Below are positions 1 to 13,042 of a DNA stretch of 64,000 nucleotides, one piece after another. The notes below the pieces were generated by a model. It searched no databases. It was not told the origin of the DNA and saw only the letters and a list, made by a program, of their open reading frames with translations. A program made the position numbers and the translations under genes. Source of the DNA: Eledone cirrhosa. Lineage: Eukaryota. The stretch lies in contig OZ024740.1 in the NCBI GenBank assembly GCA_964016885.1, positions 350,300,001-350,364,000 of the forward strand. Direction: 5' to 3'. Each line of letters opens with the position of its first letter. Position 1 is the stretch's first letter.

Positions 1-1335
1 TGGGGCATATTGGACCAGCTATAATAGGTCTAAGTTTTAAGTCTTTTGGGTGTAGTAATTTAATGTACTCACTGTTTTGTTCTCTTACTGCCTGTTGTAT
101 TTCTTTTGACTTATGAACTTTCGGTAGGCCATACAGGTTGCTGGGTTTTGGTTCAAAATTGGTGATGTAGTCTCTTTCCTTATCAGTAAATGAGTTGTGG
201 TATTTTGAAGCCAGGTTGTTGATCTTCTTCATGATGTTGTGGTCTATATTTGACGGTATTTCATGATAGAATGTTGTGTCTTTCAGTTGTTCCTCAACCA
301 AATCCGTGTAGTATTCAGCATCCATTATAACAACTTCACCCCCTTTATCTGCTTGTTTAATTATTATTGTTTTATCATTTTGTATACGTTTAAGTGCAGA
401 CATTTCTGATTTGTTAATGTTTGGCCTAACATTAGTATTACGTCTAAGATGAAATTTAGACAGGATGTCAATGTATTGGTCGAGATAGATATTTCTTCCT
501 TTTGACGGAGTGAAATTTGATTTATTCTTTACTAGTGATTCATCACTCTCATTACTTTTATCAGCGAAGAATTCTACAAGACGTAATTTTCGACAGAATT
601 CTTGGGTATCCTCCTTCAGTTCTTGGTGGTTGACTGTTGGAGTCGGTGTGAATTTCAGTCCTTTTCACAGAATTTGCATTTCATCATTGTCAAGATCTCT
701 CTTGGATAAATTAATTATTTTAGGATCTACGTGTACAGTTGTTTTGGGTATGTTTCCTCCTGGAGTTTTTCTTTTTCCGGTTTTTGTTGTCCTGACGTTA
801 AAAAATGGATTTTTCTCTGTTCAGGATTTATATTCCTGTTGGTGTTCGCTTGATGAACTTTTGGTCGTGATATCATATATGGTTTCTTTATGTATTTTGT
901 CCTATTTTTGGTATTATGTATATTATTTTTCCATTTCTTGTTAGCATTATTTTTAATAATCTGGGCAAATGACCTAGGTTTGCTTTCAGGTTTAGATCGT
1001 TTTTTCGCCCAGTTTCTTGTGGGTAATCTCTGTTGAGATCTTGAGAGTGATCTGGTTATTCTACGTTTTGTTTCCACATTCCTTGTGGGTAGTCTCTGTT
1101 GAGATCTTGAGAATGATCTACTGGTTTTACTACTTCTCATGGTCTGGTCAAAGGAATATCTATGGTGTTTGTGCTTTTTGTTCATGTTGTGTGCGATAGG
1201 GTGTTTTTGTAGAAAAAGCGAAGAGTTATTACCGTAGTTCTTCTTTGATTCAAGGTAAGGTGAGTGTTTGTGTTGGCACGTGTTCTGGCGTATGTTGTGT
1301 TGGTGATATTGTCCACTTTTAATGCTTTGTCTCAG
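1..1335 (-). mobile_element. Neptune-like PLE, N-terminal part of ORF, degraded; runs off the left edge
   Basis: Minus-strand translation by eye: KGLKFTPTP...IIIKQADKGGEVVIMD...LYGLPKVHK...LRPIIAGP, typical PLE pre-RT/RT N-terminal motifs; basic low-complexity N-terminus with duplicated RSxSRSQQRLPTRN (ORF 727-1368). Confidence 0.85.
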
Positions 1336-1339
1336 GGTT

Positions 1340-2460
1340 CCAGAGTCTTTACCGTAAATTGCATCCAAATTAGAGGCACAGCGATGGGAACAAAGTTTGC
1401 TCCCGTTTACGCGAACTCTGTAATGGGATACTTAGAACAACAACTCTACCAAGAAATAGAGGAAAAATATAGTACTGACTTTAGAAAGTACATTGAAAAA
1501 TCTTGACGACTGTTTCATCATCTGGACAGAATCTCTAGATACTCTGGATGAGTTCAATATCCTCCTGAATAACCTACACCCATCTCTCCAATTCACAAAA
1601 GAGATGAGTAGGACCAAATTACCATTCCTAGATATAATGATAATCAAAAACGACACCACCAATTACCACGGATATATATATTATAAACACACAGACACCC
1701 ATCAATATCTGAATTTTAAGTCGTGCCATCCATCTCATACAAAATGCAACATCCCATACTGCCTAGCCAGAAGAATTTGTACCATTGTAGAAGATACGAA
1801 TACCACGTACAAAGGCCTAACAGAACTAAGAGAATTTTTGCTCAAACAAAAATACGCATCTCTATTTATAGAAAATGGCATACAGCGGGCTATAAAAATA
1901 CCTATACAACAACTTAGGACAACCCAAGGAAGAAGAAACCAAGAACTGGCCATACCATTTATAATGACACACAAACCATGTCACCAGAATATCTTCAACA
2001 CTGCCAAAGCAAACCTACCGATCATTTTCCTCATTTCTAAAATTAGCAAAACAATTGATGCTTTGGATAGGATCAATTAGGATCAATTAGTGGTCGTTAG
2101 ACATGCTCAACCAACCGTGACGCCTAAACCAATCAGTGAAATTCAGTGAAACTACACACCTATTTGTCGAAATACAGTTTGCAAGATTTAGCATTCTGGA
2201 GCTACTTTTCACTGTATATAAGGTACAAAATTTACCCATCTCATTACAGTTGGAATTGCAAACTTGACTGTCACCACACATTATGAACCTGAAGATTGCG
2301 AAAGCATGAAAGGACTTGTTCAATTAACACTTAACATTTAATATTCTATCATACTATTTCATTATAATACCATTATAAATTTTAAAGGATTGTAAAACGA
2401 GTAAATCAGACAAAGTTGGAATTCCTCTTATTAATATAATCTTCTATACACAAACATACA
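1340..2460 (+). mobile_element. Neptune-like PLE, C-terminal RT/thumb plus 3' region, inverted relative to 1-1335, frameshifted
   Basis: GTAMGTKFAPVYAN (ORF 1264-1506); LDDCFIIW, LPFLDI, YKHTDTHQYL, SCHPSHTKCNIPY (ORF 1493-2080). Confidence 0.85.
2284..2322 (+). ncRNA. Minimal type I hammerhead ribozyme in PLE 3' region
   Basis: TGAAC-CTGAAGA-T-TGC GAAA GCA-T-GAAA-GGAC-TT-GTTCA; stem I TGAAC/GTTCA, GNRA-capped stem II. Confidence 0.75.
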
Positions 2461-2473
2461 CACCCGTGTATAT

Positions 2474-2590
<117 letters not shown>

Positions 2591-2622
2591 GAAGTGGTTA
2601 CACAACAGTTAGTTCACCATAC

Positions 2623-2660
2623 CGAGAACAATTGTTTCACCTTAGCTGATCTTCAGCTCG
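2623..2660 (-). ncRNA. Minimal type I HHR (left copy)
   Basis: Minus strand: CGAG-CTGAAGA-TCAGCTAAGGT-GAAA-CAATTG-TT-CTCG; stem II weakened. Confidence 0.6.
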
Positions 2661-2924
2661 TAATGGACATGGTTATACGGAACAGGAATGACAACCGTAC
2701 GAACGTAAGAGGTGTTCCGAAACGTGTGGACTTACATAACTACAAAGCTCCGGATTGAAACACAACATCCTAATTTTCTTATCAACTAGAAACTTTTTGG
2801 ACTTTCGCAGTTATCTCCCTTACACCTCTCGCACGCTTTTTAGTATTTCCTGTGGGAAGTGACAGTTTCTGCGCATGCACGTTCGTACGGTCGTCCTTCC
2901 TGTTCTGTATAACCATGTCCATCA

Positions 2925-2962
2925 CGAGCTGAGGATCCGCTAAGGTGAAACAATTGTTCTCG
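2925..2962 (+). ncRNA. Minimal type I HHR (right copy)
   Basis: CGAG-CTGAGGA-T-CC GCTAA GG-T-GAAA-CAATTG-TT-CTCG; palindromic stem III ACAATTGT. Confidence 0.7.
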
Positions 2963-3060
2963 GTATGGTGAACTAACTGTTGTGTAACCACTTCTACCTA
3001 ACTCGTCCCATGGACTGAGTGCTCTACCACTACGGATATTACCTTCCAGTGTGCTACCAC

Positions 3061-3266
<206 letters not shown>

Positions 3267-3270
<4 letters not shown>

Positions 3271-4969
3271 TGGATTAAATGCTCTGAAATAGCGATATAT
3301 ATGTGAAGATAGACATAGAATATTCGAAAATATTCTGTATGTTTATAATAAACATTTTGAAGACCTAATCGCTATAGAATAGAATACGTCACGTATTACA
3401 ATTAGATTCTCGATAAAAGCAAGGGAAGTAACCTACGCGTTTCATTCTTATTAGAAATCTTCAGGATTACATATCCAGTGCTTTTATCGAGAATGACACA
3501 GCTAGAGACTTATAGAATACTTAGCTGTGTAGAGGAACTGGTTTGAAAGAGCGGTTGCCGGTCCGGCAGAAATTAGAAATTGGATTAAATGCTCTGAAAT
3601 AGCGATATATATGTGAAGATAGACATAGAATATTCGAAAATATTCTGTATGTTTATAATAAACATTTTGAAGACCTAATCGCTATAGAATAGAATACGTC
3701 ACGTATTACAATTAGATTCTCGATAAAAGCAAGGGAAGTAACCTACGCGTTTCATTCTTATTAGAAATCTTCAGGATTACATATCCAGTGCTTTTATCGA
3801 GAATGACACAGCTAGAGACTTATAGAATACTTAGCTGTGTAGAGGAACTGGTTTGAAAGAGCGGTTGCCGGTCCGGCAGAAATTAGAAATTGGATTAAAT
3901 GCTCTGAAATAGCGATATATATGTGAAGATAGACATAGAATATTCGAAAATATTCTGTATGTTTATAATAAACATTTTGAAGACCTAATCGCTATAGAAT
4001 AGAATACGTCACGTATTACAATTAGATTCTCGATAAAAGCAAGGGAAGTAACCTACGCGTTTCATTCTTATTAGAAATCTTCAGGATTACATATCCAGTG
4101 CTTTTATCGAGAATGACACAGCTAGAGACTTATAGAATACTTAGCTGTGTAGAGGAACTGGTTTGAAAGAGCGGTTGCCGGTCCGGCAGAAATTAGAAAT
4201 TGGATTAAATGCTCTGAAATAGCGATATATATGTGAAGATAGACATAGAATATTCGAAAATATTCTGTATGTTTATAATAAACATTTTGAAGACCTAATC
4301 GCTATAGAATAGAATACGTCACGTATTACAATTAGATTCTCGATAAAAGCAAGGGAAGTAACCTACGCGTTTCATTCTTATTAGAAATCTTCAGGATTAC
4401 ATATCCAGTGCTTTTATCGAGAATGACACAGCTAGAGACTTATAGAATACTTAGCTGTGTAGAGGAACTGGTTTGAAAGAGCGGTTGCCGGTCCGGCAGA
4501 AATTAGAAATTGGATTAAATGCTCTGAAATAGCGATATATATGTGAAGATAGACATAGAATATTCGAAAATATTCTGTATGTTTATAATAAACATTTTGA
4601 AGACCTAATCGCTATAGAATAGAATACGTCACGTATTACAATTAGATTCTCGATAAAAGCAAGGGAAGTAACCTACGCGTTTCATTCTTATTAGAAATCT
4701 TCAGGATTACATATCCAGTGCTTTTATCGAGAATGACACAGCTAGAGACTTGTAGAATACTTAGCTGTGTAGAGGAACTGGTTTGAAAGAGCGGTTGCCG
4801 GTCCGGCAGAAATTAGAAATTGGATTAAATGCTCTGAAATAGCGATATATATGTGAAGATAGACATAGAATATTCGAAAATATTCTGTATGTTTATAATA
4901 AACATTTTGAAGACCTAATCGCTATAGAATAGAATACGTCACGTATTACAATTAGATTCTCGATAAAAG
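3267..4969 (-). repeat. 310-bp HHR-containing tandem array, left arm (~5.5 units, 5 HHRs on minus strand)
   Basis: TGGATTAAAT recurs at 3271, 3581, 3891, 4201, 4511, 4821; HHR reverse complement at 3428-3470 and every 310 bp to 4668. Confidence 0.95.
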
Positions 4970-7900
4970 ACCGGCAACCGCTCTTTCAAACCAGTTCCTC
5001 TACACAGCTAAGTATTCTATAAGTCTCTAGCTGTGTCATTCTCGATAAAAGCACTGGATATGTAATCCTGAAGATTTCTAATAAGAATGAAACGCGTAGG
5101 TTACTTCCCTTGCTTTTATCGAGAATCTAATTGTAATACGTGACGTATTCTATTCTATAGCGATTAGGTCTTCAAAATGTTTATTATAAACATACAGAAT
5201 ATTTTCGAATATTCTATGTCTATCTTCACATATATATCGCTATTTCAGAGCATTTAATCCAATTTCTAATTTCTGCCGGACCGGCAACCGCTCTTTCAAA
5301 CCAGTTCCTCTACACAGCTAAGTATTCTATAAGTCTCTAGCTGTGTCATTCTCGATAAAAGCACTGGATATGTAATCCTGAAGATTTCTAATAAGAATGA
5401 AACGCGTAGGTTACTTCCCTTGCTTTTATCGAGAATCTAATTGTAATACGTGACGTATTCTATTCTATAGCGATTAGGTCTTCAAAATGTTTATTATAAA
5501 CATACAGAATATTTTCGAATATTCTATGTCTATCTTCACATATATATCGCTATTTCAGAGCATTTAATCCAATTTCTAATTTCTGCCGGACCGGCAACCG
5601 CTCTTTCAAACCAGTTCCTCTACACAGCTAAGTATTCTATAAGTCTCTAGCTGTGTCATTCTCGATAAAAGCACTGGATATGTAATCCTGAAGATTTCTA
5701 ATAAGAATGAAACGCGTAGGTTACTTCCCTTGCTTTTATCGAGAATCTAATTGTAATACGTGACGTATTCTATTCTATAGCGATTAGGTCTTCAAAATGT
5801 TTATTATAAACATACAGAATATTTTCGAATATTCTATGTCTATCTTCACATATATATCGCTATTTCAGAGCATTTAATCCAATTTCTAATTTCTGCCGGA
5901 CCGGCAACCGCTCTTTCAAACCAGTTCCTCTACACAGCTAAGTATTCTATAAGTCTCTAGCTGTGTCATTCTCGATAAAAGCACTGGATATGTAATCCTG
6001 AAGATTTCTAATAAGAATGAAACGCGTAGGTTACTTCCCTTGCTTTTATCGAGAATCTAATTGTAATACGTGACGTATTCTATTCTATAGCGATTAGGTC
6101 TTCAAAATGTTTATTATAAACATACAGAATATTTTCGAATATTCTATGTCTATCTTCACATATATATCGCTATTTCAGAGCATTTAATCCAATTTCTAAT
6201 TTCTGCCGGACCGGCAACCGCTCTTTCAAACCAGTTCCTCTACACAGCTAAGTATTCTATAAGTCTCTAGCTGTGTCATTCTCGATAAAAGCACTGGATA
6301 TGTAATCCTGAAGATTTCTAATAAGAATGAAACGCGTAGGTTACTTCCCTTGCTTTTATCGAGAATCTAATTGTAATACGTGACGTATTCTATTCTATAG
6401 CGATTAGGTCTTCAAAATGTTTATTATAAACATACAGAATATTTTCGAATATTCTATGTCTATCTTCACATATATATCGCTATTTCAGAGCATTTAATCC
6501 AATTTCTAATTTCTGCCGGACCGGCAACCGCTCTTTCAAACCAGTTCCTCTACACCGCTAAGTATTCTATAAGTCTCTAGCTGTGTCATTCTCGATAAAA
6601 GCACTGGATATGTAATCCTGAAGATTTCTAATAAGAATGAAACGCGTAGGTTACTTCCCTTGCTTTTATCGAGAATCTAATTGTAATACGTGACGTATTC
6701 TATTCTATAGCGATTAGGTCTTCAAAATGTTTATTATAAACATACAGAATATTTTCGAATATTCTATGTCTATCTTCACATATATATCGCTATTTCAGAG
6801 CATTTAATCCAATTTCTAATTTCTGCCGGACCGGCAACCGCTCTTTCAAACCAGTTCCTCTACACAGCTAAGTATTCTATAAGTCTCTAGCTGTGTCATT
6901 CTCGATAAAAGCACTGGATATGTAATCCTGAAGATTTCTAATAAGAATGAAACGCGTAGGTTACTTCCCTTGCTTTTATCGAGAATCTAATTGTAATACG
7001 TGACGTATTCTATTCTATAGCGATTAGGTCTTCAAAATGTTTATTATAAACATACAGAATATTTTCGAATATTCTATGTCTATCTTCACATATATATCGC
7101 TATTTCAGAGCATTTAATCCAATTTCTAATTTCTGCCGGACCGGCAACCGCTCTTTCAAACCAGTTCCTCTACACAGCTAAGTATTCTATAAGTCTCTAG
7201 CTGTGTCATTCTCGATAAAAGCACTGGATATGTAATCCTGAAGATTTCTAATAAGAATGAAACGCGTAGGTTACTTCCCTTGCTTTTATCGAGAATCTAA
7301 TTGTAATACGTGACGTATTCTATTCTATAGCGATTAGGTCTTCAAAATGTTTATTATAAACATACAGAATATTTTCGAATATTCTATGTCTATCTTCACA
7401 TATATATCGCTATTTCAGAGCATTTAATCCAATTTCTAATTTCTGCCGGACCGGCAACCGCTCTTTCAAACCAGTTCCTCTACACAGCTAAGTATTCTAT
7501 AAGTCTCTAGCTGTGTCATTCTCGATAAAAGCACTGGATATGTAATCCTGAAGATTTCTAATAAGAATGAAACGCGTAGGTTACTTCCCTTGCTTTTATC
7601 GAGAATCTAATTGTAATACGTGACGTATTCTATTCTATAGCGATTAGGTCTTCAAAATGTTTATTATAAACATACAGAATATTTTCGAATATTCTATGTC
7701 TATCTTCACATATATATCGCTATTTCAGAGCATTTAATCCAATTTCTAATTTCTGCCGGACCGGCAACCGCTCTTTCAAACCAGTTCCTCTACACAGCTA
7801 AGTATTCTATAAGTCTCTAGCTGTGTCATTCTCGATAAAAGCACTGGATATGTAATCCTGAAGATTTCTAATAAGAATGAAACGCGTAGGTTACTTCCCT

Positions 7901-8944
7901 TGCTTTTATCGAGAATCTAATTGTAATACGTGACGTATTCTATTCTATAGCGATTAGGTCTTCAAAATGTTTATTATAAACATACAGAATATTTTCGAAT
8001 ATTCTATGTCTATCTTCACATATATATCGCTATTTCAGAGCATTTAATCCAATTTCTAATTTCTGCCGGACCGGCAACCGCTCTTTCAAACCAGTTCCTC
8101 TACACAGCTAAGTATTCTATAAGTCTCTAGCTGTGTCATTCTCGATAAAAGCACTGGATATGTAATCCTGAAGATTTCTAATAAGAATGAAACGCGTAGG
8201 TTACTTCCCTTGCTTTTATCGAGAATCTAATTGTAATACGTGACGTATTCTATTCTATAGCGATTAGGTCTTCAAAATGTTTATTATAAACATACAGAAT
8301 ATTTTCGAATATTCTATGTCTATCTTCACATATATATCGCTATTTCAGAGCATTTAATCCAATTTCTAATTTCTGCCGGACCGGCAACCGCTCTTTCAAA
8401 CCAGTTCCTCTACACAGCTAAGTATTCTATAAGTCTCTAGCTGTGTCATTCTCGATAAAAGCACTGGATATGTAATCCTGAAGATTTCTAATAAGAATGA
8501 AACGCGTAGGTTACTTCCCTTGCTTTTATCGAGAATCTAATTGTAATACGTGACGTATTCTATTCTATAGCGATTAGGTCTTCAAAATGTTTATTATAAA
8601 CATACAGAATATTTTCGAATATTCTATGTCTATCTTCACATATATATCGCTATTTCAGAGCATTTAATCCAATTTCTAATTTCTGCCGGACCGGCAACCG
8701 CTCTTTCAAACCAGTTCCTCTACACAGCTAAGTATTCTATAAGTCTCTAGCTGTGTCATTCTCGATAAAAGCACTGGATATGTAATCCTGAAGATTTCTA
8801 ATAAGAATGAAACGCGTAGGTTACTTCCCTTGCTTTTATCGAGAATCTAATTGTAATACGTGACGTATTCTATTCTATAGCGATTAGGTCTTCAAAATGT
8901 TTATTATAAACATACAGAATATTTTCGAATATTCTATGTCTATC

Positions 8945-8948
<4 letters not shown>
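4969..8948 (+). repeat. 310-bp HHR-containing tandem array, right arm (~12.8 units, 13 HHRs on plus strand); retrozyme-like
   Basis: Reverse complement of the left-arm unit; HHR begins at 5062, 5372, ... 8782; no ORF of 60 aa or more in the track. Confidence 0.95.
5062..5104 (+). ncRNA. Minimal type I hammerhead ribozyme (representative of 18 array copies)
   Basis: GTAATC-CTGAAGA-T-TTCT AATA AGAA-T-GAAA-CGCG-TA-GGTTAC; intact core, stem I GUAAUC/GGUUAC, palindromic stem III ACGCGU, predicted GUA cut after 5098. Confidence 0.88.
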
Positions 8949-8993
<45 letters not shown>

Positions 8994-9027
8994 AGATTTG
9001 AATGGATACAGTTTAGTTGAAAGGAAT

Positions 9028-9147
9028 TTATTGACACGTGTTTCTATAACAGTTACATAACCTAAAACAGTTGCTATCTACAAACTTTTAGTTATGCAGA
9101 CATTCAATATTTCAATGTTATTATTTACTGTCATTTCATCAGAATAA
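9028..9147 (-). ncRNA. Type I HHR with long stem II insertion (left copy)
   Basis: Reverse complement of 12923-13042. Confidence 0.7.
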
Positions 9148-9709
9148 TATTACTGAAGACCTATTTAGTTTTTATAGAGAATATTAGGAGGGAGGGGTGA
9201 AGTTGTTAGAAGAATAGTTGAAGGAGTGGTTTTTCGATAGCAGTGAGAATTCTTGGTGGCAGTGAGTAATTAGATTCCCATCTGTTGTTTTGACATTTTT
9301 TATAGAATATATTATTGGTTATTTTTCTAAATCTATAGAAGGATTAGAGATAGTAAAGATATGCGTGGTTGGTTTTGTGTTTGCACTTAATTAACATTCA
9401 GACTTAAATTTTTCTTTCAAGTGTACGTATCCTTTCACCCACGCATTCACACACAAATATATTTGCACACCTCTACAAAATACATATACTCACAATTCAC
9501 ATATTCATACTTACATATATATACACATGCATACACATATATATACACACATGTATTCATGTACATACATACGCGCTCATGTGTATACATTTTCATACTC
9601 AACTTATCTTTATATACACACGTATAGACACACACATATATACATACATACTCTAGTCCATGTGTACACACATACACATACATACACATCCATATACACA
9701 TATATACAT

Positions 9710-9748
<39 letters not shown>

Positions 9749-10015
9749 CACTTTAATACATGAATACACTTACATCTAACTATACACATCAAACATATAT
9801 ATATATTTACTTATTTATATACATTTTCACATATATATACATACTTATGGACGTTTTTAGACACATTCATTATCGCATATTTGCACCTATTCTCATCAGC
9901 ATATCTTTCCATTATTAGTGTGGTAATTTAAGGTTATTAATATATGTTGAGAAGAGATTGTTTTTATATTTTTCTAACTAGATTAAGGTTTATATAGTTG
10001 GGGGATGTCCCTCTT

Positions 10016-12002
10016 TTATGTAATATTCGGCTTGTAGTGGAAAAAAAGTGTTTTAGTTCTGTGACGGCAGAATAATGTTCGTTCAATTCTGTTATTCAGC
10101 AGTTTCTTCTTGTGTGTGATTATGTAATAAATCTCAAGATTACACAATTTGCAGAAATTTTGGCTCCTGGAAAAGCTTTGGGTTTTAGCTAATTTCTCCT
10201 ATTTTAGGGTAAACTTTTGATCGCTATCCCTGAGCGTCCAAGCTTTTTCTGCTAAAGTTGTTACATTTCTTTGGCTCTGGTGTTTTATTGAGTAAGAATG
10301 CCTATACAATCGAGATTTAAACGATGTTGCCGTTGATCCCACGTAATACCACTCGTTGCCTCCGGATTTAATGGTACACTTATAAATAATATTTTTTTCC
10401 AGGCAGTTATTGCCGAGGGGGCAGTTGTCAGGATAGGTGCAGTTACAGTTGTGTACGTTGGGTTTTCTCTGGAGTAGTATTGCGGACGAACTTAGGTGTG
10501 GTTTATTTATGTTCTGTAGTGTATTGTCTACTGTTTTTTTTTGTGTTCTTTGTACTTAAGTTCTTAGTGTTTTCGTTTAACCTTCTAGTATTGATCTTTT
10601 TTATGTGTTGTTCAAGGTTTAACGCTGTAGAGTATGACAGTCTTATAGTGGTAGGGTTTAGGATTTTGTGGTATTTGTGTGATGTGGGAAAATGTCTTTT
10701 AATTATTTTAAAGAAGAGTACTGGTAAATTTGTACTAATGGAACTATTGTATTCAGGGTTATACCATAAGTACTCTTTGCATCGCTTTCTATTAGTTTTG
10801 TTTGTTGGTTTACTGGTGTGCATACTATGGTAGTAAGTGTGGTTTGGTGTTGTGTTATTATATCTACCTATGTGGGATTTATTTTGGGTGTTTTGATTGT
10901 TCCCATCTATGTACTCTATTTTGTTGAGGTAGCCTGCTTTACTAAGGGCGTTATCGTAGTACTCGACGTGTTCCTTAAATACTTGTATGTTAGAAGATAG
11001 ACCCGAGATTCTAAGGGAAATATTTTTAGGGATAGATTTAATTATAGAGATGGGGTGGTTAGACCCAACATTTACGTATTTGAGATTTTCATTCAATTTA
11101 TGAAACGGTTTAATCAAACCAGAGTTTAAATTGAGTGTGACATCCAGGAAGTTAACTACTTTAAGGTTGTATTCATATGTTATAGTTAGTCCTATTTCGA
11201 GTAGTAGTTTTCTTATATCTTTGCGTAGTTTTTCTAGTCTTTCGTTATTAAGGTTTTTAGCTAGGAGGAGAACATCGTCGCGGTATATTCCGCCGTGGAG
11301 ATTGCTGAATTTTTCCTGGAGTCTAAAGGCGATAAATAACCCCACAATATCAGTTATTTCCGCCGAATCGTTAGAGCCCATTGTTATGTCAAAGTTAGAG
11401 GGTCTATCTTTACGTACCCAATAACTGTTCTCAAATTTGACTATAGTTTTCCTAGCTTCTAATATAATCTTAATTTCATCGTTTGTAAGGTCAGAGTTAT
11501 CCTTAGCAAACTTAATGGCTCTATTCAAAGTTTCAGGTGATATCGATGAGTAATATTCATCGATATCAAACTGGATAAACTTAGATTTATTCTTATTGCT
11601 AATGCTATTAAACCATCTTATTGCTTCTTGGGTCTTCCCCCAGAGTTTAATGTTAACCTTAGCCTTAATTTGGGGGATGATTCTATCTAAGATATATTTG
11701 CTTATTTTACCTATATCTGATTTAGAGGGGCAGATTAATCTAATTTTAGGGTCATTATCAAAGTTTACCTTGTGGTCCTTAAGATTGAAGGTGGGTACCG
11801 CCGGTAAGAGTGGTCCTGTCCTATCTTCGATTCCGAGATTTTTCACTATTTCGCATGCCTCATCATTGATGTGCTTAAGGGTTACTTCACTCGTTTTTCT
11901 ATATTTTTTATGTAATTCTTTTCGAATGAAGTTGTTGTATGTAGTGCAATCCATAGTGTACAGGTTTGATGTTTTGTCCGCTTTTACTACAATTCCTTTG
12001 GT
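10016..12002 (-). pseudogene. Naiad-type RT + GIY-YIG endonuclease (frameshift near 10510, in-frame TAG near 10200)
   Basis: ORF 10503-11954: IQFDIDEYYSSI, FDITMGSNDSAE, GIYRDD, VNFLDVTL; continuation in another frame: CNC..CPLGNNC..IIYKC..YYVGST..RLYRH..CKLCNLE..LLNNRIE..CRH. Confidence 0.9.
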
Positions 12003-12306
12003 GTTTTTTTCCCACTACAAGCCGAATATTACATAAAAGAGGGACATCCCCCAACTATATAAACCTTAATCTAGTTAGAAAAATATAAAAACAATCTCTT
12101 CTCAACATATATTAATAACCTTAAATTACCACACTAATAATGGAAAGATATGCTGATGAGAATAGGTGCAAATATGCGATAATGAATGTGTCTAAAAACG
12201 TCCATAAGTATGTATATATATGTGAAAATGTATATAAATAAGTAAATATATATATATATGTTTGATGTGTATAGTTAGATGTAAGTGTATTCATGTATTA
12301 AAGTGG

Positions 12307-12366
<60 letters not shown>

Positions 12367-12922
12367 ATATGTGTATATGGATGTGTATGTATGTGTATGT
12401 GTGTACACATGGACTAGAGTATGTATGTATATATGTGTGTGTCTATACGTGTGTATATAAAGATAAGTTGAGTATGAAAATGTATACACATGAGCGCGTA
12501 TGTATGTACATGAATACATGTGTGTATATATATGTGTATGCATGTGTATATATATGTAAGTATGAATATGTGAATTGTGAGTATATGTATTTTGTAGAGG
12601 TGTGCAAATATATTTGTGTGTGAATGCGTGGGTGAAAGGATACGTACACTTGAAAGAAAAATTTAAGTCTGAATGTTAATTAAGTGCAAACACAAAACCA
12701 ACCACGCATATCTTTACTATCTCTAATCCTACTATAGATTTAGAAAAATAACCAATAATATATTCTATAAAAAATGTCAAAACAACAGATGGGAATCTAA
12801 TTACTCACTGCCACCAAGAATTCTCACTGCTATCGAAAAACCACTCCTTCAACTATTCTTCTAACAACTTCACCCCTCCCTCCTAATATTCTCTATAAAA
12901 ACTAAATAGGTCCTCAGTAATA

Positions 12923-13042
12923 TTATTCTGATGAAATGACAGTAAATAATAACATTGAAATATTGAATGTCTGCATAACTAAAAGTTTGTAGATAGCAGC
13001 TGTTTTAGGTTATGTAACTGTTATAGAAACACGTGTCAATAA
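12923..13042 (+). ncRNA. Type I HHR with long stem II insertion (right copy)
   Basis: TTATT-CTGATGA-A-ATGACAGT...ACTGTTAT-A-GAAA-CACGTG-TC-AATAA; GUC site, palindromic stem III. Confidence 0.7.

What the first reader, a model, noticed from the sequence alone, without database searches (positions are those of the whole stretch)
3267..8948. Near-perfect 310-bp hammerhead-ribozyme array: a very young retrozyme-like insertion
Seen: about 18 units with only two substitutions noticed (4752, 6556) and no ORF. Each unit has an intact minimal type I HHR on top of a perfect 16-bp stem (ATTCTCGATAAAAGCA/TGCTTTTATCGAGAAT). Further hairpins are ACACAGCTA/TAGCTGTGT, AATACG-TGA-CGTATT, AGAATATT-TTCG-AATATTCT and TGCCGG-A-CCGGCA. 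Known: HHR satellites (newt satellite 2, schistosome Sm-alpha, Dolichopoda pDo500) and metazoan non-LTR retrozymes yield monomeric or circular RNAs, and palindromic short stem III implies dimeric cleavage. Inference: multimeric transcripts self-cleave into 310-nt monomers or circles, which a PLE reverse transcriptase copies by rolling circle. I cannot tell whether this family has been described.
Basis: partly seen in the sequence, partly recalled or inferred. Interest (0 to 1): 0.9.

Follow-up and report, generated by a model that had tools for sequence, protein, structure and literature searches.

The report
Two-armed ribozyme parasite of Penelope elements
This 310-base non-coding repeat carries a predicted self-cutting RNA and sits at over a thousand places in an animal genome, mostly as two back-to-back arms ending at two fixed sites in TA repeats, the footprint of Penelope-type jumping genes, and the copy here was likely made by copying one small RNA circle many times over.

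Summary
The array is real (18.3 units, 18 type I hammerhead motifs, two substitutions) but is not one head-to-tail run: a minus arm (3267-4969) and a plus arm (4969-8948) sit back to back inside a (TA)n tract. It belongs to a young dispersed family (11,617 exact HHR-core matches; 1,119 exact end junctions) that fits the animal non-LTR retrozymes. The insertion anatomy is the new part. Most insertions are two-armed; the arms end at two fixed sites 26-35 nt apart, one arm at each (53 of 54 held-out pairs). That is the Penelope-like-element (PLE) 'tail', and co-resident PLEs show the same geometry. Inner ends do not stop at the ribozyme cut (3 of 137; 4.4 expected). All 18 window units share an allele found in no other pair of adjacent units in the assembly, as expected if both arms were reverse-transcribed from one monomeric circle. 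Not shown: cleavage, circular RNA, expression, the helper element. Some arrays also lengthened in place. Verdict: new member of a known kind, with footprint evidence for how retrozymes are mobilised.

The parts
3061..3266 (.). (TA)n tract, left target flank
3267..4969 (-). Left arm, 5.49 units in antisense. Its outer (sense 3') end is at unit phase 167, site B, so it carries the tail. Phase 1 = first base after the predicted cut (unit window:5099-5408).
3269..3303 (-). 35-nt tail (phases 131-165), terminal on the left arm and absent from the end of the right arm
   Evidence: PLE tail described in PMC8557442 and PMC11167929
4969..4969 (.). Inversion junction: sense 5' ends of both arms meet (phase 15 / phase 181) with a 1-nt overlap
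4969..8948 (+). Right arm, 12.84 units in sense. Outer end at phase 130, site A (139 if the element's internal AT run is counted as microhomology with the target)
5062..5104 (+). First plus-strand type I hammerhead: stem I 5062-5067/5099-5104, core 5068-5074, stem II 5075-5088 with U.U at its base, GAAA 5089-5092, palindromic stem III, predicted cut after 5098; repeats every 310 nt (13 copies)
4668..4710 (-). Innermost minus-strand hammerhead, predicted cut at 4674; 5 copies on this arm
5038..5126 (+). 16-bp stem (5038-5053 with 5111-5126) enclosing the hammerhead
   Evidence: pair probabilities 0.68-1.0 at three tested pairs
5310..5310 (+). Phase-212 allele carried by all 18 passes of both arms; other arrays carry it only in single or alternate units
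8949..8990 (.). (AT)n tract, right target flank

Best explanation
This is a young non-coding retrozyme insertion whose two inverted arms end at two fixed sites in a (TA)n tract, and it was likely made when a Penelope-like-element protein nicked both DNA strands and reverse-transcribed one 310-nt RNA circle repeatedly from both nicks. Steps: (1) inferred: arrays are transcribed into multimers; (2) predicted: the hammerhead cuts once per unit, probably as a dimer through its palindromic stem III, and monomers are circularised, as shown for axolotl and mussel retrozymes; (3) shown as a genomic footprint, enzyme inferred: two target 3' ends in (TA)n prime at two internal sites, A (phase 130-139) and B (phase 165), one each; (4) shown: copying crosses the cut site without stopping; inferred: because the template is a circle; (5) shown as a footprint: the two copies are joined head to head, usually over 0-6 shared bases. 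Confidence by layer: retrozyme-type family about 0.95, PLE machinery about 0.9, monomeric circle as template about 0.6.
For: Family: 11,617 exact matches to a 28-nt HHR pattern, reversed control 0; 106 + 1,013 exact site-B/(AT)n junctions for two alleles; 168 site-A junctions for one allele. Anatomy: of 50 insertions (37 top hits including the window, 13 taken in chromosome order), 37 are two-armed, all minus-then-plus; 81 of 87 sense 3' ends lie at A or B; 32 of 37 two-armed ones pair A with B, 0 pair A/A or B/B, 5 have one unclassified end. Held-out sets chosen only by a B end: partner arm ends at A in 33 of 33 resolved (40 loci; 6 single, 1 ran off) and 20 of 21 resolved (40 loci; 5 single, 14 ran off). 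Co-resident PLE families with RT and GIY-YIG domains and a CxxxxCxxC linker carry a hammerhead and end in (TA)n at two sites, 124 and 164 nt after the cut in one family, about 122 and 180 in another. PMC11167929 shows a PLE protein nicks and extends both strands and starts at two internal RNA sites that define the tail. Read-through: 3 of 137 inner ends lie within 5 nt of the cut, 4.4 expected, over 294 crossings. One monomer: the phase-212 allele has 31 exact matches, 17 in the window and 14 elsewhere, none of the 14 in adjacent units; 7 of 8 locus-private fixed variants span both arms. Selection on the RNA: 0 of 29 propagated variants hit the 12 core positions and 9 of 12 in helices keep pairing, against 21 of 93 for singletons (Fisher p 5e-4; variants are not independent). 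The subfamily with the better predicted ribozyme fold (1.4-2.3 vs 4.05 kcal/mol above the ensemble) has about ten times more junctions and longer B arms (median at least 1,245 vs 298 nt), the direction expected if cleavage feeds the template pool. A paralogous arrangement (L073) has only a TA tract where the window has the array.
Against: No cleavage or RNA data exist here. Periodic variants in L040, L045, L050, L054, L062 and L068 show arrays can lengthen in place; L040 lacks its period-10 variant in the first expected unit, so it is not a rolled 10-mer circle. The window's arms are long outliers for their subfamily (1 of 40 B arms reaches 1,703 nt; none of 33 A arms exceeds 871), so later tandem growth cannot be excluded. 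L031 carries a core G12A change in 4 of 8 passes, on both arms, which a single functional circle does not explain. PMC11167929 found uncut RNA to be the main template in vitro, and the 2026 preprint saw cleavage in 1 of 9 Xenopus retrozyme dimers. The window's unit has a competing fold that pairs the core. No helper with sequence similarity was found: 20 of 150 scored GIY-YIG loci were fetched (10,595 candidates), and four families gave no alignment beyond shuffles. L049 has an 11-nt second arm, below the detection limit, that looks B/B. The arm-length contrast rests on two subfamilies sampled from different chromosome ranges. A parent array homogeneous for the 212 allele could lie on an unassembled haplotype.
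Confidence: 0.6

Rival explanations
1. Same PLE two-site priming, but the template is an uncut linear multimeric transcript, and long arrays such as this one grew afterwards by tandem duplication. The ribozyme is then slow or incidental to mobilisation.
For: Uncut RNA is the main PLE template in vitro (PMC11167929). Periodic variants show in-place growth. L031 propagates a core mutation on both arms. The window subfamily's active fold is disfavoured by about 4 kcal/mol. Lack of stops at the cut fits uncut RNA as well as circles.
Against: No array with adjacent 212-allele units exists elsewhere in the assembly. The window has no periodic variants and only two singletons, yet both arms exceed five units. 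Propagated variants spare the core and keep pairing. The better-folding subfamily has longer, not shorter, arms.
Confidence: 0.3
2. A LINE-type reverse transcriptase made the insertion by ordinary twin priming, with the inverted arm continuing where the first arm stops.
For: LINE-like RT fragments are common in the window. In the window the right arm's inner end (181) lies near the left arm's outer end (167). Twin priming is recalled from the L1 literature, not read here.
Against: Both outer ends are fixed and inner ends are uniform (KS p 0.75), so the continuity in the window is not general; no poly(A) tails; the A/B offset matches the PLE tail and co-resident PLEs.
Confidence: 0.04
3. An ordinary satellite amplified by unequal crossing-over and moved as DNA; the hammerhead is a passive relic.
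For: In-place duplication is seen in several arrays; the 2026 preprint discusses local amplification of a pLTR into tandem repeats.
Against: More than a thousand dispersed junctions at one exact site, strict strand geometry and A/B pairing, and pairing-preserving variation.
Confidence: 0.04
4. The inversion and the near-identity are assembly artefacts.
For: The window locus itself was not checked against reads; near-identical arrays are hard to assemble, so the unit count may be off.
Against: Asymmetric A/B ends recur in 85 loci; arrays carry locus-specific variants; contigs of run X1 show (AT)n loose ends at the same two phases and raw reads of X23 show head-to-tail joints.
Confidence: 0.02

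Closest known systems
Animal non-LTR retrozymes (coral, mussel, axolotl; PMC7229834; preprint 10.64898/2026.07.22.740005)
   Same: Non-coding 150-450-bp tandem units, low GC, one type I hammerhead per unit, stable predicted fold, dispersed in thousands of copies alongside PLEs. A U.U at the base of helix II also occurs in axolotl HHR_Amex2, which cleaves weakly as a monomer and better as a dimer.
   Different: The parts of those papers read here describe no inverted two-armed insertions, fixed tail ends or (TA)n targeting; they propose PLEs as helpers from co-occurrence and pLTR similarity. Cleavage and circles are shown there and untested here.
Penelope-like elements with endonuclease (Penelope/Poseidon, Neptune, Naiad; PMC8557442, PMC11167929)
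   Same: Tandem and inverted insertions, a 30-40-bp tail at one end only, AT-rich or (TA)n targets, a hammerhead upstream of two internal start sites.
   Different: No ORF. The unit behaves like a free pseudo-LTR that repeats itself. No sequence-matched autonomous partner was found.
Non-autonomous Chlamys elements such as MRC1 (PMC8557442, passage)
   Same: Non-autonomous PLE dependants that often form multicopy head-to-tail insertions.
   Different: That clade lacks canonical hammerheads and resembles its autonomous partner at the 3' end; this one has a hammerhead and no identified partner.
Newt satellite 2, schistosome Sm-alpha, cricket pDo500
   Same: Hammerhead-bearing tandem repeats of about 330 bp with short palindromic helix III.
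   Different: No sequence comparison was made; sequences of such repeats are species-specific according to PMC7229834.

Membership tests
Animal non-LTR retrozyme | Tandem non-coding unit of 150-450 bp, GC under 50% | tested here: met
   310 bp, GC about 34%, longest open frame 59 codons
Animal non-LTR retrozyme | One type I hammerhead with intact core in each unit | tested here: met
   18 motifs by descriptor; core spared by 29 propagated variants; Rfam gathering score not reached
Animal non-LTR retrozyme | Dispersed multicopy family co-existing with PLEs | tested here: met
Animal non-LTR retrozyme | Stable self-paired predicted structure of the monomer | tested here: met
   z -4.41
Animal non-LTR retrozyme | Self-cleavage and accumulation of linear and circular monomer RNA | not testable with these tools
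   needs transcription assay and RNA
Animal non-LTR retrozyme | Target-site duplication when present | tested here: inconclusive
   both flanks are (TA)n, so a duplication cannot be read
PLE-mobilised element | 30-40-bp tail at one end only of an inverted insertion | tested here: met
   32 of 37, then 33 of 33 and 20 of 21 resolved pairs; offset 26-35 nt
PLE-mobilised element | Inverted 5'-truncated copy adjoining the 5' end | tested here: met
   37 of 50 insertions, all minus-then-plus; inner ends uniform
PLE-mobilised element | AT-rich or microsatellite target | tested here: met
   70 of 87 outer ends followed by TA-rich flank
PLE-mobilised element | Sequence similarity to the pLTR of an autonomous partner | tested here: inconclusive
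   none among 20 fetched PLE loci; most of 10,595 candidates unseen
Autonomous PLE | ORF with RT and GIY-YIG domains | tested here: not met
   no ORF
Minimal PLE hammerhead (PMC4209133) | Helix II 7-8 bp, helix I 4-5 bp, poorly defined loop 1 | tested here: not met
   helix I 6 bp, helix II 4 bp: canonical layout; loop-loop tertiary contact not tested

The most novel reading that the evidence does not exclude
The locus is a fossil of twin-primed rolling-circle reverse transcription: a PLE protein pair nicked both strands of a TA repeat, started at two sites 35 nt apart on one 310-nt ribozyme-made RNA circle, and went round it about 5.5 and 13 times in one event. The family would be direct genomic evidence that animal retrozymes are circular-RNA parasites of Penelope-like elements, and names the RNA sites the enzyme recognises.
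Probability: 0.5. Interest if true: 0.78.

Novelty: new member of a known kind. Interest (0 to 1): 0.6.

Why it matters
How animal retrozymes get back into the genome is open: the 2020 paper calls PLEs a strong candidate and the 2026 preprint adds co-occurrence and pLTR phylogeny but says the mechanism remains to be worked out. This family supplies insertion-site evidence at scale (two fixed start sites, one per arm, in TA repeats), links it to the two start sites measured for a PLE in vitro, and gives an exact substrate and predicted start positions for a reconstitution. If the circle model holds, a PLE reverse transcriptase does processive rolling-circle synthesis of several kilobases from two primers on one circle, and dispersed satellite arrays can be born full length in one step.

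Tried and rejected
Rfam: nothing at gathering score, weak HH9 only. Sequencing runs: no RNA holder listed; 16 unlaid runs with shares of 0.26-0.37 or less are not used as evidence. RAD-seq pile-ups at 5129-5132 and 5264-5268 in X23 coincide with AATT sites and are treated as library cuts, not element ends. Helper search: 20 long-frame GIY-YIG loci, alignment against shuffles and a shorter-stem-II pattern (22 hits: 17 look like indel variants of this family, 14 of them checked; the 5 others lack stem I) gave no partner; one PLE (L072) ends in a similar short motif, not significant. Multimeric circles as the cause of periodic variants: rejected for L040 and doubtful for L050. Classical twin-priming continuity: not general. 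My first two junction patterns covered only one allele each; one search added the main allele for site B only. Dropped before counting: L032 (complex higher-order repeat), L098 and other fragments under 300 nt; the A and B windows were drawn after seeing the top-hit set, hence the held-out sets. Earlier-findings look-ups by sequence and by genome were empty. The host was not identified; 'octopus' and 'cephalopod' were search terms on an untested hunch. One search crashed before the left arm; searches replaced it.
Full report
Observation. Tandem Repeats Finder splits the feature into two arrays of period 310, 3267-4969 and 4969-8957. Mapping every base to one unit (window:5099-5408; phase 1 is the first base after the predicted cut) shows a minus arm of 5.49 units and a plus arm of 12.84 units meeting at 4969 with one shared base, and (TA)n on both sides. 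Only 4752 and 6556 differ within the array. A descriptor scan finds 18 type I hammerhead motifs with a 6-bp stem I, intact core, a 4-bp stem II closed by U.U and a palindromic stem III; two such palindromes are predicted to pair at -9.5 kcal/mol. The monomer folds better than 100 of 100 shuffles. Rfam has no match at gathering score and a weak HH9 match.

Family. A DNA search scored 40 of 393 candidates and returned 295 near-identical units on many chromosomes. A 28-nt HHR pattern has 11,617 exact matches, control 0. The window belongs to a minor subfamily; the main one differs at about seven sites, which shift the G.U pair in stem I, change N7 and loop II, and in some arrays close stem II with A-U. 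Within arrays, singleton changes are 110 in 363 units, so the family is young. Across 130 loci and 679 units, 29 variants were propagated (fixed in two or more loci, or over three or more passes): 0 in the core, 9 of 12 in helices keep pairing, against 7 core hits and 21 of 93 among 187 singletons. That suggests the RNA fold is selected during amplification; the core result alone is not significant and the variants share ancestry.

Insertion anatomy. Of 50 insertions, 37 have two arms, always minus then plus; 81 of 87 sense 3' ends fall at phase 120-141 (A, mostly 130-139) or 155-175 (B, mostly 165); 70 of 87 run into TA-rich flank; 5' ends are uniform (KS p 0.75); 32 of 37 two-armed insertions are A/B and none A/A or B/B (L049 may be a B/B exception with an 11-nt arm). 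Because those windows were drawn after the fact and the loci were selected for crossing the cut, I fetched 80 further loci by their B junction alone: the first 40 unseen of 100 listed for each allele. The partner arm ended at A in 33 of 33 and 20 of 21 resolved cases. Exact B junctions number 106 and 1,013 for the two alleles. This geometry is what results if both strands of a nicked target are extended with cDNA. PMC8557442 (passages) describes inverted 5'-truncated copies, a 30-40-bp tail at one end only and microsatellite bias as PLE features; PMC11167929 (parts 1-2 of 4) shows a PLE protein extends both strands and starts at two internal sites that bound the tail. PLEs in this genome carry RT and GIY-YIG domains, a CxxxxCxxC linker of the kind PMC8557442 assigns to Neptune and Nematis, a hammerhead, and two ends in (TA)n at 124/164 or about 122/180 nt after the cut, one per arm in inverted copies. 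None of the four families sampled resembles the unit in sequence.

Template. In the end-selected loci 3 of 137 inner ends lie within 5 nt of the cut, 4.4 expected, across 294 crossings, so the template has no free end there: it is a circle or uncut RNA. All 18 passes of both window arms carry one allele at phase 212. Genome-wide it has 31 exact matches, 17 in the window (the 18th carries the 6556 change) and 14 elsewhere, as single units or alternate units of L045, never adjacent. A read-through transcript of any assembled array could not give 18 in a row; one monomer copied repeatedly could. Seven of 8 locus-private fixed variants span both arms, and one array has a 2-bp deletion in every unit of both arms. 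The main subfamily, whose active fold is predicted to be less disfavoured, has longer arms. Against: periodic variants in six arrays point to growth in place, L031 carries a core mutation in half its passes on both arms, the window's arms are outliers for the subfamily, and a homogeneous parent could sit on an unassembled haplotype.

Independent data. Raw DNA reads of X23 (9,446 laid of 12.5 million) and contigs of X1 hold the family, with head-to-tail joints; X1 shows (AT)n loose ends at phases 139 and 165. They do not test the window locus itself.

What is in print. Searches. PMC7229834 (parts 2-4 of 6 and a term search; 0 occurrences of 'inverted', 'microsatellite' or 'cephalopod' in the main text; supplement unreadable, and it may hold insertion diagrams or more species) defines the class, shows cleavage, circles and RtcB ligation, and names PLEs as candidates. 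The 2026 preprint (parts 1-3 of 5; supplements not seen) adds co-occurrence and pLTR phylogeny in vertebrates and saw cleavage in 1 of 9 dimers. PMC4209133 (part 1 of 4) defines canonical and minimal motifs. PMC7761336 and PMC13282606 (passages) add no insertion anatomy; the latter has no mention of ribozyme or retrozyme. I found no description of this family or of two-armed tailed retrozyme insertions in these; subscription papers and repeat databases were not searchable. An earlier AI report (e1-7881736) notes PLE-type ends on a ribozyme-free tandem unit in another genome; I did not test it and do not count it as support.

Verdict. A real, young, dispersed retrozyme family: new member of a known kind. 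The PLE footprint is strong; the circle template is likely but indirect; cleavage and expression are untested. Interest 0.6.

Noticed in passing
window 2589-3060: A second, unrelated inverted hammerhead element directly left of the array: arms 2589-2706 (-) and 2879-3060 (+), motifs at 2656 and 2929, right arm 64 nt longer, between (TATC)n and (TA)n; relatives in L069 and L083.
   Followed up: partly
window 1-2483: Broken PLE in two inverted pieces with a hammerhead at 2289; 95-96% like L073, L074, L079 over the coding parts.
   Followed up: partly
window 8991-13000: RT-like frame 10506-12014 (-) between inverted repeats 9072-10047 / 12005-12998 (97.7%); no Pfam hit; PLE-like, clade not tested. 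L073 has the same neighbours with only a TA tract between them.
   Followed up: partly
runs X5 and X10: Two runs with other organism labels and other studies each hold one 340-nt contig covering the whole unit, with the same differences from the window and main-subfamily alleles, at depth 26-34. Related species, contamination, diet or transfer cannot be told apart; run kind unknown.
   Followed up: no
L070, L075, L081, L086, L088: PLE pseudo-LTRs with the U3-A8 core variant of the hammerhead, a covariation reported in PMC4209133; one family reads GCAA for GAAA.
   Followed up: partly
L086:3700-3830, L072, L075, L077: Another short inverted hammerhead element in (TA)n sharing the core and stem II sequence style of this family but with a long stem III.
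   Followed up: no
L032 (G000:C14:25022100-25032099): Higher-order repeat made of rearranged fragments of the unit and TA tracts; left out of all counts.
   Followed up: no
L094, L100, L140: Inversion junctions formed over the 16-bp stem (phases 250 and 13), a 16-nt overlap; 7 of 74 inner ends in one set lie at the stem edges, 2 of 63 in the other.
   Followed up: partly
window 16379 (+), 17694 (-), 39149 (-), 54847 (-): Four further single hammerhead-like motifs.
   Followed up: no
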